64,000 nucleotides of DNA from a virus (lineage: Duplodnaviria; Caudoviricetes). Positions 12,291 to 58,818 of this stretch are shown in pieces. Every line of letters begins with the position of its first letter. The first letter of the stretch is position 1. Below the pieces are notes generated by a model, which saw nothing but the letters and a program-made list of their open reading frames with translations, was not told the origin of the DNA and searched no databases. The stretch lies in the IMG/VR virus record IMGVR_UViG_3300042260_000337. One strand, written 5' to 3'. A program made the position numbers and the translations under genes.

Positions 12291-13025
12291 TCACTTTAGT
12301 TCGTCAATCAACACTGCTCGTTTTACTGAAAGGACCATATCTCCACCGATCATGGCCAAGTAACTTGCGGTTTGTTCATCGTCACATGCAACCGCTAATG
12401 TAGAGTATTGCCAATATCGTCGTTTATCTACCTCTGCAAGATTTGGAGATATGTAGATATTTTCCAATGAAGAAGCCATTTCTCTGAATGAAACCACTTC
12501 TTTAAGATCGACATCGCGACCAGCGATCATCGTAATCTTATAACGATGACGCTCATAATACAAACATTTTCTTACTTCTTCGGTTACGGAAAGTTTTGAC
12601 TTTACTTCGTCATAATCTTCAAATGCTGGCTCACATTCATCTATTGCAAACTCCCTGTAGTTTGCAAAGTTTTTAATTTGCTCATACAGTTCTTTTGACG
12701 TTATATAGATCAACGTATGGATAGAGTCATTGCGAACTTTGATTTCACCCTTGTTTGTCTGTGAAAGTTTTTCTATTTGGTCATGTAATCCTAATCTACG
12801 CGCCAATTCATCTTCTGTTGAAGGGTAATGTCGAACTGTAAAATGAGCACTATATCCAAAACTTCTGTTTTTTTCCGAAGTCATCGTTGATGGATTTAGG
12901 GCGTATTCCAAATATTTGTCATAAAAGTTGAATATAAGTTTAGTTCGTATTCTAAACTTATACTTCTTGTAAAATGGCTTTGTAACGATTTCTTTTTTGA
13001 TTCGTTTATACTTAAACATACTCAA
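12291..13025 (-). CDS. Hypothetical protein
   Basis: 244 aa ORF overlapping clpA stop. Confidence 0.6.
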   Translation of the reverse strand: MSMFKYKRIKKEIVTKPFYKKYKFRIRTKLIFNFYDKYLEYALNPSTMTSEKNRSFGYSAHFTVRHYPSTEDELARRLGLHDQIEKLSQTNKGEIKVRNDSIHTLIYITSKELYEQIKNFANYREFAIDECEPAFEDYDEVKSKLSVTEEVRKCLYYERHRYKITMIAGRDVDLKEVVSFREMASSLENIYISPNLAEVDKRRYWQYSTLAVACDDEQTASYLAMIGGDMVLSVKRAVLIDELK

Positions 13026-15231
13026 ATGTCAATCCTTCCTCATTCACTGAAACATTTACTGTTCCGCCATTGACAAGCCGACCAAACAAAATCTCTTTTG
13101 AGATTGGCTTCTTGATGCTGTCATGAACAACCCGCTGTAGAGGACGTGCGCCCATGTTTGGCTGATATCCCTTATCGCAAACCCAAGACCTTGCTTCGTC
13201 ACTGAGCACAATTTTGATATTCTTTTCTTCAAGCATGGTGTTTAGTTCTTTTACTGCCTTGTCAACAATCATTAGAATATGGTCTTTGTCCAGATTTTTG
13301 AACTCAACCACTGCATCAAGGCGGTTACGAAACTCAGGAGAGAAGAACTTCTCAATCGCAATCTTACTTGCATCATCGTTGCTGTTGCTAAATCCAATCG
13401 CTTGCTTTGAGCGTTGTGCAGCACCAAGGTTAGAAGTCATAATAAGAATGACGTTACTGAAATCAGCAGTCTTACCAGTTGAAGAAGTCAACTTGCCATC
13501 ATCCATAACTTGAAGAAGAAGGTTCATAACACTTGGATGTGCCTTTTCAACTTCGTCAAGAAGAACAATGCAGTTTGGAGTTTCTTCAACTTCATTGATG
13601 AGTTTACCAGAACCAACTCCACCTTCAGCATGTCCGACATAACCAGGAGGTGCGCCAATCAGTTTTGATACTGAATGGGATTCCATATATTCTGACATGT
13701 CATACTTACGCAGCTTGACATTCAGGTTGTCAGCAAGTTGACGACATACTTCTGTCTTACCAGTTCCAGTTGGTCCAACAAACAGGAACGAACCGACTGG
13801 TTTATTTCGTGGTCGCATACCAGCTTTAGCAACAAAGATTGCATCGGTCAATTGTTGAACTGCCGTATCTTGTCCAAAGATTTTTGACTTGATATTATCT
13901 TCTAGCTTTTCGTAATTGGTGTTCTGTTTTGCATCAATCATATCAAGAGAGATATTCGCAATTTTTGAAATTGCTTTGCGAATTTCATCATCGGTGATAC
14001 GGTCAGTAGTCTTATGCAGCTTTGCTTGTGCGCCCGCTACGTCAATAACGTCAATAGCACGGTCTGGGTTGAACCTGTTGAAGATGTATCGTTCTGCCAA
14101 GTCAACGGCTAAGTCAAGAGCACTATCATCATACGATACATTATGAAATGCCTCGTAGTATTCGCGCAACCCACGAAGGATTAGCTTAGTGTCGGCATTG
14201 CTTGGTTGGTCAATATTCAGACGCTGGAAACGGCGCTGTAGAGCACGATCCTTTTCAAAGTTCTCACGGTATTCTTCACTGGTAGTTGCACCAATACAGT
14301 GCAGCTTTCCACTTGCCAACAATGGTTTTAGAAGGTTTGCAATGTCAATGTTAGACCCGCCAGCATTACCAGCGCCCATAATCATATGGATTTCGTCAAT
14401 AAACAGAATTGCGTTGTCTTTTTTGGCAAGTTGGTCAAACACAATCTTGGCACGTTCTTCAAACTCGCCACGATATTTGGTTCCCGCAACCATTGCAGTC
14501 ACGTCAAGTGAATAGACAACCTTGTCTTCTAGGGTGTGCGGAACTGTTCCTTCCACAATCATAAGGGCAAGACCTTCTGCGATTGCAGTTTTACCAACCC
14601 CTGGTTCGCCAACAATAATGACATTGTTCTTCTTGCGACGAGCAAGAACTTCTGCAACTTCTGTAAGTTCACGAGTGCGGCCAACGATTGGGTCAATTAG
14701 ACCTTCTGATGCTTGGCGGTTTAGGTTGGTGCAGAAGTCTTCAAAGCGAATTTGTTGATTTCCACCACCTGAAGCACCCTGTGGAGATAGACCAGCCGCC
14801 GCATTGTGTTCATTTGTAATAATTTCAATTGCTTTGTTGCGGTCTGCACCATGCTTCTTCAATACGAAGTATGCATAGGAGTTCTTTTCACTCAGTAAAG
14901 AAATAAAGATATCTTTGCATACCAGTTTTGTGCTACCAGAGAAGATAGCTTGTGTCACAGCACGGTTGAATACGCGGTCAAGGGCAAGTGTTTTTCTTGG
15001 TTCATGCCCATTTGCATTTGGAATGTCATCGCGTTCACGCAAAAAGGTTTCAAGGTCTGAAACGATAGAACCAACATCTACTCGCATCTTATTGAGGAAG
15101 GCTATTACATCATCTTCTTCCAGAATTGAATAGAGAAGGTGTTCCAAAGTCACGTATTCATGTGCAAGTGCGGTCGCTTTTTGAATTGCACGTTCAATGG
15201 AAAGATTTACACGGTCAGGTTGGTTGCTCAT
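13012..15231 (-). CDS. clpA: ATP-dependent Clp protease ATP-binding subunit ClpA
   Basis: Clp N-domain (HEYVTLEHLL), Walker A GEPGVGKT and GPTGTGKT, KDRALQRRF, LIGAPPGYVG, IGF ClpP-docking loop, GARPL. Confidence 0.95.
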   Translation of the reverse strand: MSNQPDRVNLSIERAIQKATALAHEYVTLEHLLYSILEEDDVIAFLNKMRVDVGSIVSDLETFLRERDDIPNANGHEPRKTLALDRVFNRAVTQAIFSGSTKLVCKDIFISLLSEKNSYAYFVLKKHGADRNKAIEIITNEHNAAAGLSPQGASGGGNQQIRFEDFCTNLNRQASEGLIDPIVGRTRELTEVAEVLARRKKNNVIIVGEPGVGKTAIAEGLALMIVEGTVPHTLEDKVVYSLDVTAMVAGTKYRGEFEERAKIVFDQLAKKDNAILFIDEIHMIMGAGNAGGSNIDIANLLKPLLASGKLHCIGATTSEEYRENFEKDRALQRRFQRLNIDQPSNADTKLILRGLREYYEAFHNVSYDDSALDLAVDLAERYIFNRFNPDRAIDVIDVAGAQAKLHKTTDRITDDEIRKAISKIANISLDMIDAKQNTNYEKLEDNIKSKIFGQDTAVQQLTDAIFVAKAGMRPRNKPVGSFLFVGPTGTGKTEVCRQLADNLNVKLRKYDMSEYMESHSVSKLIGAPPGYVGHAEGGVGSGKLINEVEETPNCIVLLDEVEKAHPSVMNLLLQVMDDGKLTSSTGKTADFSNVILIMTSNLGAAQRSKQAIGFSNSNDDASKIAIEKFFSPEFRNRLDAVVEFKNLDKDHILMIVDKAVKELNTMLEEKNIKIVLSDEARSWVCDKGYQPNMGARPLQRVVHDSIKKPISKEILFGRLVNGGTVNVSVNEEGLTFEYV

Positions 15232-16374: not shown

Positions 16375-16592
16375 TACTTATACCTATACGTTATTCGACC
16401 TTTACTTAGATCATATGGGGTCATTTCCATTTTTACTTTGTCATACAATATCACTTTGATATTATTGGTTCTCATTTTACCAGACAAAATACCTTCAACT
16501 TCATGCCCATTGTCAAGTTTAACACGAAATCTACCATTTGGCAACACGTCAATTACTTGACCTTCAACTTCTATCGATTCTTCTTTAGCCAT
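16374..16592 (-). CDS. infA: Translation initiation factor IF-1
   Basis: [56 protein letters not shown], 72 aa. Confidence 0.95.
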
Positions 16593-54802: not shown

Positions 54803-55444
54803 TTATCGTCTTACTACCCAACCACGAAAGTTATAGCTTTGCCAAACTTGGTCTGCATGACCAAGATATTTCAATTCTTCGGTGATTTCGGCATTAGTCA
54901 AACAAAACATCTTACCAATCAAACTGTAATCTTTATCCAAAATCTCAGTATCGGTGAAGTGTTTTCGTTTTTGGTTGTAGTGTTCTTTTGTCATGATAGA
55001 GTTTAGTTTGGCGGTATCACTGAATACCTTTTCGGCAAGTAGCAGTGTTGCACCGTTGTCTATCAACTCTTTCAACTTTTTTACAACTTGTCGGCGTTTG
55101 TATTTACCAAGAAACTGTAACGTGAACATAGATACGATCAGGTCAACGGATGTAAAGTTTTCCAATGCAGTGATTACATCTTGGTTGAGAAACACAAAAT
55201 TTTTATCAGACGCCATTTCAACTACGTCAATACCTACGTAGAAGCCCTCTGTTGAGGCAGAGAGGTCATTGAGAAACTTACCAGTGCTACATCCAATGTC
55301 AACGCACTGACCCTCTGGTGGCATGTATTCAAGGGCTATGGCTCTAAAAACGTCATATAGTCCTTGGTAGTTTGGAATAGAAAGGTTGATGTGATTGTCG
55401 AAATCTTCAACCTTCTGAAAGTCAAACTTGTTGTGCATCATCAA
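54803..55444 (-). CDS. cmoA: CmoA-like (carboxy-SAM synthase family) SAM-dependent protein
   Basis: F....FD.HI..SIPNY, DIGCSTG, FTLQFL, AEK, EI..K..L..M, VWQSYNF align with CmoA. Confidence 0.75.
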   Translation of the reverse strand: MMMHNKFDFQKVEDFDNHINLSIPNYQGLYDVFRAIALEYMPPEGQCVDIGCSTGKFLNDLSASTEGFYVGIDVVEMASDKNFVFLNQDVITALENFTSVDLIVSMFTLQFLGKYKRRQVVKKLKELIDNGATLLLAEKVFSDTAKLNSIMTKEHYNQKRKHFTDTEILDKDYSLIGKMFCLTNAEITEELKYLGHADQVWQSYNFRGWVVRR

Positions 55445-56315
55445 ATTCCCGTATCAACTCACCAACATGCTGAATGACATTTACCGTCATTCCATTATAC
55501 ACGAACTTTTGAGTATCGGTTAGGTCGCAACCATCAAACCAATCAATTGGGAACGACTGTAGAAGTAGTCGTTCAGTTGGAGTAACCCTGCGTATTCTAT
55601 TTTCAGTGATTACCAAATCTGTAAACTGTTTATAGTCTCGTTTACAAAGAGTTGATGCTAATCCTGATTCGGTAAATTCTGCATTGCTTTGACGAGTGAT
55701 GTAGGTAAAGGCTTCTTGCCCTCTTTCTGGCTTCGCCTCAAAACTCCACTCAAAGCCTTGTGAGATAGATTCCACTTTTCTTCTGTGTTCGTCAGTATCA
55801 CGTTCTCTAAACTTGAAGATTTCGGTTCCAAGGGGGATTCCGTCACGGACGGCCACAATGTAAACTCTACGTCTTCGTTGGGGAACTCCAAAAAACTTGG
55901 AGTCGTAGATTGTCCAAGTCGCATCGTACCCGATTTGGGCAAGGTCGTGTAGGACGACTTCAATTCCTCTGCCAAGGATTGCAAAGACGTTTTCAATGAT
56001 CGCATATTTTGGTTTCCCTTCATCTATAAGTCGTAGATACTCTTTCCATAATCCAGAACGTTCACCAGTAATGCCAGCACCTTTTCCACCTACAGAAATG
56101 TCTTGGCAAGGGAACCCCCCGCACATAACATCATACTCTCCACCTTTCAGTGAGAGAGTTTTTACGTTGTCAAAAATAACAGCGTTAGGAAAATTCTTTT
56201 TTAGAACCCGTGTGGCTGGTTCTTCGATTTCACACATGGCAGTTATATCAAACCCTGCGCGTTGAAGCCCAAGTTCAAAGCCACCGATTCCACTGAATAG
56301 TCCTAATACTTTCAT
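55422..56315 (-). CDS. C5-cytosine DNA methyltransferase-family enzyme
   Basis: LFSGIGG, GGFPCQD, ENV, QRRRRVYIV, RR.TP.E...LQ.FP. Confidence 0.9.
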   Translation of the reverse strand: MKVLGLFSGIGGFELGLQRAGFDITAMCEIEEPATRVLKKNFPNAVIFDNVKTLSLKGGEYDVMCGGFPCQDISVGGKGAGITGERSGLWKEYLRLIDEGKPKYAIIENVFAILGRGIEVVLHDLAQIGYDATWTIYDSKFFGVPQRRRRVYIVAVRDGIPLGTEIFKFRERDTDEHRRKVESISQGFEWSFEAKPERGQEAFTYITRQSNAEFTESGLASTLCKRDYKQFTDLVITENRIRRVTPTERLLLQSFPIDWFDGCDLTDTQKFVYNGMTVNVIQHVGELIREFDDAQQV

Positions 56316-56358
56316 TTTTACCTCATTTTATACATCATATCAAAAAAACTCAAATAAG

Positions 56359-56550
56359 TCAAGCCACTAAAAAGTTGGCATCTTCCAAATCTTCTCGTAG
56401 GACAAAATCATCAGGAAGTTCAACAGTCTTTCCTTCCATCACGCTTTCAATAAGTCTTTTACTTTCAAGTAAACTTTTTCCAGTGTGCTTTCTAACGGCA
56501 TTTATAGCAGAATATGAGTTTGCTCTATGTTTGCATCCTATAATAAGCAT
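56359..56550 (-). CDS. Ribosomal protein bL12 (L7/L12) C-terminal-domain-like protein
   Basis: AN...INAVRKHTGKSLLESKRLIES ... LEDA vs bL12 [27 protein letters not shown] ... LEEA; 63 aa, no N-terminal domain. Confidence 0.7.
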   Translation of the reverse strand: MLIIGCKHRANSYSAINAVRKHTGKSLLESKRLIESVMEGKTVELPDDFVLREDLEDANFLVA

Positions 56551-56573
56551 TTCCTTTCTCCTTTAGAATAATA

Positions 56574-56649
56574 TGGTCCCCAAGGACGGAATCGAACCGC
56601 CGACACCATGCTCTTCAGGCAAGTGCTCTACCAACTGAGCTACTTGGGG
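56574..56649 (-). tRNA. tRNA-Phe(GAA)
   Basis: Loop CTGAAGA; CCA. Confidence 0.9.
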
Positions 56650-56802: not shown

Positions 56803-56879
56803 AGTGACACGAAAGGAGTTGAACCTTCATCTTTACTTTTTTGGAGTAACGCCTTATCCCTAGTTTTGGCCACGTGTAT
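56803..56879 (-). pseudogene. Degenerate tRNA-like sequence (Trp-like loop, no CCA)
   Basis: ACACG/CGTGT, GCC/GGC D-stem, TTACT-CCAAAAA-AGTAA, GAAGG-TTCAACT-CCTTT. Confidence 0.45.
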
Positions 56880-56895
56880 GTAGTAAAATAATCTA

Positions 56896-56970
56896 TGGTG
56901 CGGTCTAATGGATTTGAACCATTGACCTCTGTCGAGTCAGGACAGCGTTCTACCCCTGAACTAAGGCCGC
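56896..56970 (-). tRNA. tRNA-Val(GAC)
   Basis: CTGTC-CTGACTC-GACAG; CCA. Confidence 0.9.
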
Positions 56971-57692
56971 ATATCTATTTTCAAATTTTCTAACATGGTT
57001 CCGTTGAAATCAGCAAACTCAACCTTTTTTGTTGACAAGTATTTTTCTGCGACTAATTTAAGATGGTCATAGTTATCTACTATTGTCTTTTTACTTGGTG
57101 CTTTTAATTTAGATATATCAAATGGTGTTAGATTTTCTATTGGTGTATTACACAGTTCCATATTGGCAAAATCAACAACAGGATCAAAAGTAAGATTTTC
57201 CATATATACGATTTCATTATACTGAATATTAAAATCGTTTCTGCATATATATCCCAAATCCCATAACTGATTATCAACATACCATATAATCATATCATCT
57301 GTTATTTCAACTTTATCGAAGTTATGATATTCAACAAATTCTTTTTTTATATTTGCGATAGCAAGACTCAATGCACTTTGAAAGACATCTTTTCTTAATA
57401 TGACAATCGTATAATATTTTTTTTGGTAATATCGATCTATGACCCCATAGTCTTTCAAATCCACAATTTGAGTAATATGCGTTTTCATTACTACGGGGTC
57501 ATGTCGTTCAATGAAATTCAGCCGACTATTAAAAAGATTTGCTATTTCAGACGAAGATGTTATTTCTGGTGGTATTAGAAATGGTTCATTTACACAAACA
57601 TAATTTTTGTTCAGACTTGTCATGTGATGACAAATCATTCGTTGCATATATGTCGAACCATTTCTTGGATTACTTATTATTTGAATATTCAT
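56961..57692 (-). CDS. Sulfotransferase-like protein (Stf0 type)
   Basis: IISNPRNGST PAPS-binding loop; LRKD.F.SALS. Confidence 0.65.
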   Translation of the reverse strand: MNIQIISNPRNGSTYMQRMICHHMTSLNKNYVCVNEPFLIPPEITSSSEIANLFNSRLNFIERHDPVVMKTHITQIVDLKDYGVIDRYYQKKYYTIVILRKDVFQSALSLAIANIKKEFVEYHNFDKVEITDDMIIWYVDNQLWDLGYICRNDFNIQYNEIVYMENLTFDPVVDFANMELCNTPIENLTPFDISKLKAPSKKTIVDNYDHLKLVAEKYLSTKKVEFADFNGTMLENLKIDMRP

Positions 57693-57737: not shown

Positions 57738-57923
57738 GCCAAAGGAAAACAGAGCCAAAAATATCATAACGAGCGATTATGTTTCTGTTACTGTCCGCAT
57801 TTTCCCGCCCAGCCTCTCCCTATACCACTTGTTTTCACAGCCCGATATAGTCTCTTTGCGTTCACGGTGCTTCGTTCCACTCTTTAAAGGATGTGCTGCC
57901 TCTAAGCCAACCTCCTACTGAAC
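57738..57923 (-). ncRNA. Structured RNA containing a copy of 23S rRNA H43/H44 (uL11-binding GTPase-associated centre)
   Basis: AGGAGGTTGGCTTAGAGGCAGCACATCCTTTAAAGA (57916-57881) vs conserved 23S AGGAGGTTGGCTTAGAAGCAGCCATCCTTTAAAGA; closed by GTTCA/TGAAC; further helices downstream. Confidence 0.75.
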
Positions 57924-58745: not shown

Positions 58746-58818
58746 AAACTGTTACGGGATTCGAACCCGCCTCTCCCCCGACTCCGCAGGAGTATCCTTT
58801 CCTATAGACGAAACAGTC
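58746..58818 (-). pseudogene. tRNA-like sequence with aberrant anticodon arm, no CCA
   Basis: GACTGTT/AACAGTT, GCGGG-TTCGAAT-CCCGT; anticodon loop 6 or 8 nt. Confidence 0.5.

What the first reader, a model, noticed from the sequence alone, without database searches (positions are those of the whole stretch)
56359..56550. Stand-alone bL12 C-terminal-domain-like protein in the stable-RNA region
Seen: 63-aa ORF with strong SD, aligning to the bL12 CTD (N, I, AVR, TG, L, E, K, L, ES and C-terminal LE.A conserved). It has no N-terminal dimerisation/uL10-binding domain. By my alignment the E. coli factor-contact residues I69, R73 and K84 are kept, while K65, V66 and K70 are replaced (S, Y, N). Established: the bL12 CTD recruits EF-Tu, EF-G, IF2 and RF3, and bL12-like genes have been reported in some phages. 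Inference: an untethered, respecified CTD could act as a GTPase-factor decoy or adaptor.
Basis: partly seen in the sequence, partly recalled or inferred. Interest (0 to 1): 0.62.

Follow-up and report, generated by a model that had tools for sequence, protein, structure and literature searches.

The report
Repurposed ribosomal-stalk domain in jumbo phages
A large phage carries a 63-residue protein copied from the part of ribosomal protein bL12 that grabs translation factors; its relatives have let that grabbing surface drift and conserve a different one, so it is probably a repurposed binding protein, not a simple factor decoy.

Summary
Window 56359-56550 (minus strand) is a real 63-aa gene with a Shine-Dalgarno site, 23 nt downstream of tRNA-Phe in a jumbo phage (203-kb partial record, 40 tRNA calls). 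It folds as, and descends from, the bL12 C-terminal domain (hhalign 92%, E 6e-7; top Foldseek hit 1CTF; ClpS 0.1%) and lacks the N-terminal domain. It belongs to a family of over 100 phage proteins, nearly all exactly 63 aa, under purifying selection, patchily distributed and often flush against tRNA genes. The GTPase-decoy reading is weak. Positions matching K65, V66, I69, K70, R73, L80, K81 and K84 are nearly invariant in 30 cellular bL12 but among the most variable in this family; the I69/R73/K84 retained here is not a family trait. The family instead conserves G5-Y6-R7, K21-H22-T23 and D48-F49-V50-L51-R52-E53-D54. The nearby GTPase-centre mimic RNA does not co-occur with it. Best reading: a repurposed accessory binding module with an acidic/aromatic helix-3 site and an unidentified partner, possibly a tRNA- or ribosome-directed host nuclease. 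Phage bL12 domains are published (Mizuno 2019), and this scan found other stand-alone CTDs on other DNA. New variant of a known kind.

The parts
56359..56550 (-). 63-aa gene, stand-alone bL12-CTD-derived protein (beta-alpha-alpha-beta-alpha-beta)
   Evidence: ORF; AF2 pLDDT 96; Foldseek/VIA top hits are bL12 CTD; hhalign 92% to E. coli bL12; family of more than 100 proteins
56558..56563 (-). Shine-Dalgarno site AAGGAG, 7 nt before the ATG
   Evidence: sequence; a purine-rich GGAG/AGGA-type site precedes the ATG in most related loci
56446..56517 (-). codons 12-35: helices 1-2, equivalent to the GTPase-factor face of bL12 (E. coli 65-88); surface positions variable in the family
   Evidence: entropy ranks 41-63 of 63 for the canonical contact positions; pN/pS 0.62 against 0.44 for the whole gene
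56380..56415 (-). codons 46-57: family-specific conserved acidic/aromatic helix 3 (P-D-D-F-V-L-R-E-D-L-E-D)
   Evidence: D48 58/62, F49 52/62, V50 52/62, L51 62/62, E53 55/62, D54 50/62; F49, V50, E53 and D54 fall on positions that vary in cellular bL12
56482..56490 (-). codons 21-23: conserved K-H-T at the end of helix 1
   Evidence: K21 54/62, H22 57/62, T23 52/62
56574..56649 (-). tRNA-Phe(GAA) with encoded CCA, ending 23 nt before the ATG; probable co-transcript
   Evidence: ARAGORN and Rfam; a tRNA lies within 300 nt in 12 of 26 family clusters against 8% background
56334..56362 (-). sigma-70-like promoter match (10 of 12, extended -10) overlapping the stop codon, facing the methyltransferase gene; weak evidence
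   Evidence: 11 sites found against 6.7 +/- 2.6 expected

Best explanation
The gene is a phage-captured copy of the bL12 C-terminal domain that has been repurposed. SHOWN: bL12 ancestry and fold; no stalk-anchoring domain; a real gene under purifying selection; accessory distribution; linkage to tRNA arrays; decay of the helix-1/2 factor-contact face; new conservation at G5-Y6-R7, K21-H22-T23 and the acidic/aromatic helix 3. INFERRED (about 0.7): the working surface has moved to the helix-3/K21-H22 patch. By the topology of the fold this patch lies at the end where bL12's hinge would leave, and the fixed 63-aa length suggests that it packs against a partner. INFERRED (about 0.45): the protein is made from tRNA-operon transcripts, acts as a free stoichiometric binder of a basic protein, and helps keep translation running during infection. 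SPECULATIVE (about 0.2): the partner is a host tRNA- or ribosome-directed defence nuclease that the acidic helix blocks.
For: Ancestry. Inverted conservation against 30 cellular bL12. Canonical face less constrained than the gene as a whole (pN/pS 0.62 against 0.44; median dN/dS 0.26 over 125 pairs). Contrast: other bL12-like modules keep the face (K70 in 19 of 22 repeat modules of bacterial proteins; separate phage ORFs in L046 and L221 keep I69-K70-R73 and E82-x-K84). Helix 3 carries a mean charge of -4.6 against -2 to -3 in E. coli. Length: 96 of 115 exactly 63 aa; 105 of 115 have no C-terminal extension. Accessory: absent from three near-complete relatives of 342-347 kb and five cultured relatives. 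tRNA within 300 nt in 12 of 26 clusters against 8%. The closest shapes are other small non-ribosomal proteins (TM 0.91-0.93) and a fusion with immunity protein Imm35 (TM 0.84). L12/ClpS domains are reported as inserts in bacterial conflict systems (PMC7159879). A defence RNase, Cami1, is captured by the bL12 stalk.
Against: No partner was identified and no neighbour is conserved (the best is in 9 of 24 groups). The family was collected partly through its conserved motif, which inflates that motif's conservation (it does not explain the variability of helix 1). The family is more diverged than the control (42% against 70% mean identity), and the control is one phylum plus E. coli. tRNA clusters collect many unrelated small genes, so the linkage may be positional. 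The Imm35 and conflict-system links are shape-level leads only.
Confidence: 0.45

Rival explanations
1. One reading: a free bL12 CTD that binds translational GTPases (EF-Tu, EF-G, IF2, RF3) through helices 1-2, as a decoy or adaptor.
For: This member keeps I69, R73, L80, E82 and K84. The mean net charge of residues 12-35 in the family is +1.8 against +2 in E. coli, so electrostatic steering is not excluded. K/R is at the K84 position in 43 of 62. A phage bL12-domain protein was detected in ribosome fractions (PMC6375957). Neighbours are often translation-related: tRNAs, IF-1, bS21.
Against: The contact positions named in the literature (V66-V68, K70, L80, E82: PMC5887453; K65, K70: PMC10602876) are among the least conserved in the family, with F, P, D and E tolerated. 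Even K-to-R at 65 or 70 weakens EF-Tu binding in E. coli. The modal member keeps 1 of 6 canonical residues. Inhibiting elongation factors would also hurt a phage that carries about 40 tRNAs (inference).
Confidence: 0.15
3. A ClpS-like adaptor for the phage's own ClpA-type ATPase (window 13012-15231) or for host Clp proteases.
For: The fold is shared with ClpS (VIA Z 7.6 against 8.0 for bL12, a tie). The phage encodes a ClpA-type ATPase. Distant members lie near ClpS, Hsp20, Hsp70 or ClpP genes.
Against: No sequence signal to ClpS (0.1%; 3-16% identity in structural alignments). The N-degron pocket residues (N-D-D and His; from my own knowledge of ClpS) map to G-Y-R and an aliphatic residue. 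Carriers also encode true ClpS. Relatives with ClpA lack the gene.
Confidence: 0.07
4. A small metal-binding or self-assembling protein in which H22, D48, E53 and D54 form a metal or oligomer site, with no direct link to translation.
For: His, Asp and Glu are the most conserved polar residues. In one divergent clade H22 becomes Cys while R52 becomes His. Length is fixed.
Against: A few members lack all candidate ligands. No metal-site family was matched in Pfam, NCBIfam or PHROGs.
Confidence: 0.15

Closest known systems
C-terminal domain of bacterial ribosomal protein bL12 (L7/L12; Pfam PF00542; PDB 1CTF)
   Same: Same fold and order of elements; 36% identity to E. coli; core residues and the T-G-x-x-L-x-E-x-K helix-turn-helix pattern recognisable.
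   Different: No N-terminal dimerisation/uL10 domain or hinge. Below Pfam's cut-off. Helix 2 is longer and ends in an invariant Gly; helix 3 is shorter and acidic. L58 is replaced by an invariant Gly. The factor-contact face is not conserved.
Phage-encoded bL12-domain proteins (Mizuno et al. 2019, PMC6375957: Ralstonia RSB3, DFL12phi1, Salmonella FSL SP-076 and others)
   Same: Phage capture of the bL12 domain, about 30-40% identity, function untested.
   Different: Those are reported to keep the uL11/EF-G/EF-Tu contact residues and are 98-724 aa, in genomes under 80 kb. This family is a bare 63-aa domain in ~280-370 kb phages, with the contact face decayed and a new conserved motif. It was not found in any cultured phage record.
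ClpS adaptor (PF02617)
   Same: Same fold (VIA Z 6.3-7.6).
   Different: No sequence similarity; the pocket residues are absent.
Unnamed 70-85 aa bacterial L12-like proteins and an Imm35-fused domain (ESM Atlas clusters)
   Same: Closest shapes: TM 0.91-0.93 (rmsd about 1 A) and 0.84.
   Different: Sequences were not retrievable and homology was not tested. The family profile found no relative in GTDB genomes through its motif.

Membership tests
bL12 C-terminal domain (homologous domain) | beta-alpha-alpha-beta-alpha-beta fold matching 1CTF | tested here: met
   AF2 pLDDT 96; Foldseek top hit 1CTF, prob 1.0, TM 0.70, E 0.018; VIA Z 8.0, rmsd 1.6 A over 57 residues to 8YEQ
bL12 C-terminal domain (homologous domain) | significant sequence/profile similarity to bL12 | tested here: met
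   hhalign 92%, E 6e-7; 0 of 5000 shuffles; best member E 2.8e-6 in Pfam
Pfam PF00542 Ribosomal_L12 | score at or above the 25.9-bit gathering threshold | tested here: not met
   14.8 bits for this protein
Ribosomal protein bL12 (functional stalk protein) | N-terminal dimerisation/uL10-binding domain and hinge | tested here: not met
   63 aa starting at strand 1; 105 of 115 members have no N-terminal extension; no longer fused form found (weak evidence)
Ribosomal protein bL12 (functional stalk protein) | conserved basic factor-binding face (K65, V66, I69, K70, R73, L80, K81, K84) | tested here: not met
   This member keeps 4 of 8; family-wide these rank 41-63 of 63 in variability, against near-invariance in 30 cellular bL12
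Ribosomal protein bL12 (functional stalk protein) | binds EF-Tu, EF-G, IF2 or RF3, or is found on ribosomes | not testable with these tools
Phage-encoded bL12-domain proteins (Mizuno 2019) | bL12-derived domain encoded by a phage genome | tested here: met
   Virus record of 202,706 nt; relatives on 283-370 kb phage-like contigs
Phage-encoded bL12-domain proteins (Mizuno 2019) | retains the residues for uL11/EF-G/EF-Tu contact | tested here: not met
   against the paper's statement
ClpS | sequence/profile similarity to PF02617 | tested here: not met
   No Pfam hit in 42 members; hhalign 0.1%
ClpS | N-degron pocket (N-D-D after strand 1, His at the end of helix 2) | tested here: not met
   Structural register places G-Y/W/C-R/K and V/I/A there; the pocket residues themselves are from my own knowledge of ClpS
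Polymorphic-toxin immunity / anti-defence protein | neutralises a toxin or defence nuclease | not testable with these tools
   Only a shape match to an Imm35-fused domain; no credible PADLOC match

The most novel reading that the evidence does not exclude
A jumbo-phage counter-defence protein built from a ribosomal stalk domain. It is expressed from tRNA operons and uses a newly evolved acidic helix to trap a host tRNA- or ribosome-directed nuclease, or a stalk-docking effector, so that translation continues.
Probability: 0.2. Interest if true: 0.75.

Novelty: new variant of a known kind. Interest (0 to 1): 0.4.

Why it matters
Databases call these proteins 'ribosomal protein L7/L12' (JGI names), and they would be counted as virus-encoded ribosomal proteins. 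The inverted conservation shows that at least one large family probably no longer does bL12's job. So counts of phage ribosomal proteins mix true mimics with repurposed folds. The protein is tiny, well folded and has two separable surfaces (old and new), so the open question of what phage bL12 domains do can be tested with a few point mutants. If the partner is a defence nuclease, it would be a new anti-defence class.

Tried and rejected
(1) Obligate pairing with the GTPase-centre mimic RNA: rejected by reciprocal searches. The two 3-mismatch pattern hits were not confirmed by the RNA model. (2) Pairing with phage IF-1: a complete genome with the protein lacks IF-1, and two with IF-1 lack the protein. 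(3) Phage uL11: none found in five records. (4) ClpS identity: rejected. (5) Conserved partner gene: none; the best neighbour family is in 9 of 24 groups. DUF7448 is adjacent in some loci but the window has an unrelated 243-aa gene there. (6) Cellular members: the single GTDB hit is a chance motif in an unrelated 280-aa protein; this search needs the exact motif, so distant cellular relatives are not excluded. (7) Cultured phages and plasmids: no member. (8) Fused longer forms: none among 8000 candidates, weak evidence. (10) The Cami1 paper is not held, so which bL12 face it binds could not be checked. One DOI that I guessed returned an unrelated paper and was ignored. (11) The low pN/pS of the 'new face' (0.09) is circular, as those sites were picked for conservation; it is not used as evidence. 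L80 and E82 counts in the repeat modules are also circular.

Full report
Setting. The window is part of a 202,706-nt virus record, estimated 56% complete, with 40 tRNA calls. Its ClpA-type ATPase is closest to those of jumbo myophages such as PA5oct, Paride and Atu_ph07 (45-47% identity). Close relatives lie on contigs of 346-370 kb. The host is unknown.

The observation. The ORF is on the minus strand at 56359-56550 and encodes 63 aa. AAGGAG lies 7 nt before the ATG, and the CCA end of tRNA-Phe lies 23 nt before it. Alone, the match is sub-threshold (Pfam 14.8 bits against 25.9), but it is not chance: score 66 against 23 +/- 4.5 in 5000 shuffles, and first among 2261 open frames of the genome. 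The family profile matches the E. coli C-terminal domain at 92% probability, E 6e-7, and a phage ClpS at 0.1%. The AlphaFold2 model (pLDDT 96) has the order strand-helix-helix-strand-helix-strand. Foldseek ranks 1CTF first at 30% identity, with ClpS chains following at 10-16%. VIA-align gives Z 8.0 for bL12 and 7.6 for ClpS, a tie on shape. Fold alone does not separate the two; sequence does.

The family. Searches gave about 115 proteins down to about 25% identity. 96 are exactly 63 aa; 105 have no N-terminal and 105 no C-terminal extension. Most related loci show a Shine-Dalgarno-like site before the ATG. Median pairwise dN/dS is 0.26 over 125 pairs, so this is a real, selected gene. It was found on viral and metagenomic contigs, not in GTDB genomes or cultured phages. 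It is accessory: three near-complete relatives of 342-347 kb, two with 70-72% identical ClpA, lack it. A tRNA gene lies within 300 nt in 12 of 26 independent clusters, against 8% of positions in this genome. No protein neighbour is conserved; IF-1 and an AbrB/MazE-like gene recur in 7 of 24 groups.

The key test: which surface is conserved. The literature places factor binding on a conserved, positively charged site in helices 4 and 5 of bL12 (PMC6753160), naming V66-V68, K70, L80 and E82 for EF-G (PMC5887453) and K65 and K70 for EF-Tu, where even K-to-R weakens binding (PMC10602876). I69, R73 and K84 are from established mutagenesis that I know but could not retrieve. In a control of 30 cellular bL12 (29 Actinomycetota plus E. 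coli), K65, I69, K70, R73, L80, K81, E82 and K84 are invariant. In 62 non-redundant members of the phage family the matching positions rank 59 (K65), 62 (V66), 53 (I69), 60 (K70), 51 (R73), 50 (L80) and 41 (K84) of 63 in variability, and K81 is the most variable position. No member has basic residues at all of 65/70/73/84; the mode is two. These sites, chosen in advance from the literature, have pN/pS 0.62 against 0.44 for the gene. By contrast, other bL12-like modules keep the face: bacterial repeat proteins (K70 in 19 of 22) and separate ORFs of related jumbo phages.

What the family conserves instead is G5 (62 of 62), an aromatic or Cys at 6, R/K7, K21, H22, T23, G40, and D48-F49-V50-L51-R52-E53-D54-L55. 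Positions 6, 21, 22, 49, 50, 53 and 54 are variable and mostly polar in cellular bL12. Helix 3 has a mean charge of -4.6. A conserved acidic/aromatic patch there, with both termini fixed in length, suggests a surface packed against a partner. This is inference; the same residues could be an internal stabilising network. One point favours residual factor binding: the net charge of residues 12-35 (+1.8) is close to that of E. coli (+2), because of K21 and K/R32.

The GTPase-centre RNA lead. Earlier notes of this scan (e1-5365663, e1-5365665) describe a 23S-like RNA 1.2 kb upstream and propose a joint mimic. The RNA sequence is there and is widespread in phages, but the two do not travel together: 0 of 21 RNA-bearing records encode the protein (control), 0 of 12 protein-bearing records hold the RNA, and only this subclade has both. 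Most records are fragments, but three complete ones break the pair in both directions. No phage uL11 was found.

Mechanism. The best-supported account is a repurposed, free bL12-derived module that binds a partner through helix 3 and K21-H22, is translated from tRNA-operon transcripts, and serves an accessory role in infection (0.45). The most likely partner class is a basic, RNA-acting host protein, such as a tRNA- or ribosome-directed defence nuclease (about 0.2). The grounds are indirect: acidic helix, tRNA linkage, patchy distribution, a shape match to a domain fused to immunity protein Imm35, reported L12/ClpS inserts in conflict systems (PMC7159879), and the precedent of the stalk-captured RNase Cami1. 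Rivals: canonical GTPase decoy 0.15, metal/oligomer protein 0.15, ClpS-like adaptor 0.07, partner of the mimic RNA 0.06.

Comparison and novelty. It is a homologue of the bL12 C-terminal domain but fails the tests for a functional bL12 (no anchor domain, face not conserved) and for ClpS. Phage bL12-domain proteins were published in 2019, and that paper states that they keep the contact residues (PMC6375957). This scan has also reported other stand-alone phage CTDs on other DNA. I found no description of this 63-aa family or of its shifted conservation in the papers searched.

Noticed in passing
window 57738-57923 (-): RNA resembling the uL11-binding GTPase-associated centre of 23S rRNA. The 5' motif was found in 21 other viral records, mostly among tRNA genes, and has no Rfam match. 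It does not co-occur with the bL12-like gene.
   Followed up: partly
window 56807-56877 (-): tRNA-like element scored by Rfam (37 bits) but not called by ARAGORN, between tRNA-Val and tRNA-Phe; a similar one lies at 58746-58818.
   Followed up: no
L046:1474-1809 (-) (record G001) and L221:1279-1689 (-) (record G088): Two other jumbo-phage ORFs (111 and 136 aa) with a bL12-like helix-turn-helix that keeps the canonical I69-K70-R73 and E82-x-K84 face. G001 carries one in addition to the 63-aa gene; these are better decoy candidates.
   Followed up: partly
window 56961-57692 (-): 243-aa gene with no Pfam or PHROG match and a sulfotransferase-like start (S-x-P-R-x-G-S-T). It replaces the DUF7448 gene found at this position in close relatives L001-L003.
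   Followed up: no
window 54803-56315 (-): Overlapping C5 cytosine methyltransferase and CmoA-like methyltransferase genes directly downstream; kept in L001-L003 only.
   Followed up: no
window 16383-16574 (-) and 13012-15231 (-): Phage-encoded IF-1 and ClpA-type ATPase; no ClpS gene in the part of the genome held.
   Followed up: partly
G000:C1:121642-121718 (outside the window): ARAGORN calls a tRNA with anticodon CUA (amber suppressor or Pyl type) in the second tRNA cluster.
   Followed up: no
L102 and L103 (loci of P0125, P0126): A divergent clade has Cys for H22 and His for R52, and lies near bS21, Hsp20 and ClpS genes (Hsp70 in L102).
   Followed up: partly
proteins P0054, P0055, P0058, P0069, P0072, P0075, P0077, P0078: Bacterial-type proteins with 3-6 tandem bL12-like modules, often with a zinc ribbon or membrane anchor, that keep the canonical factor face; P0058 has four near-complete CTDs before a PEP-CTERM-like tail.
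   Followed up: partly
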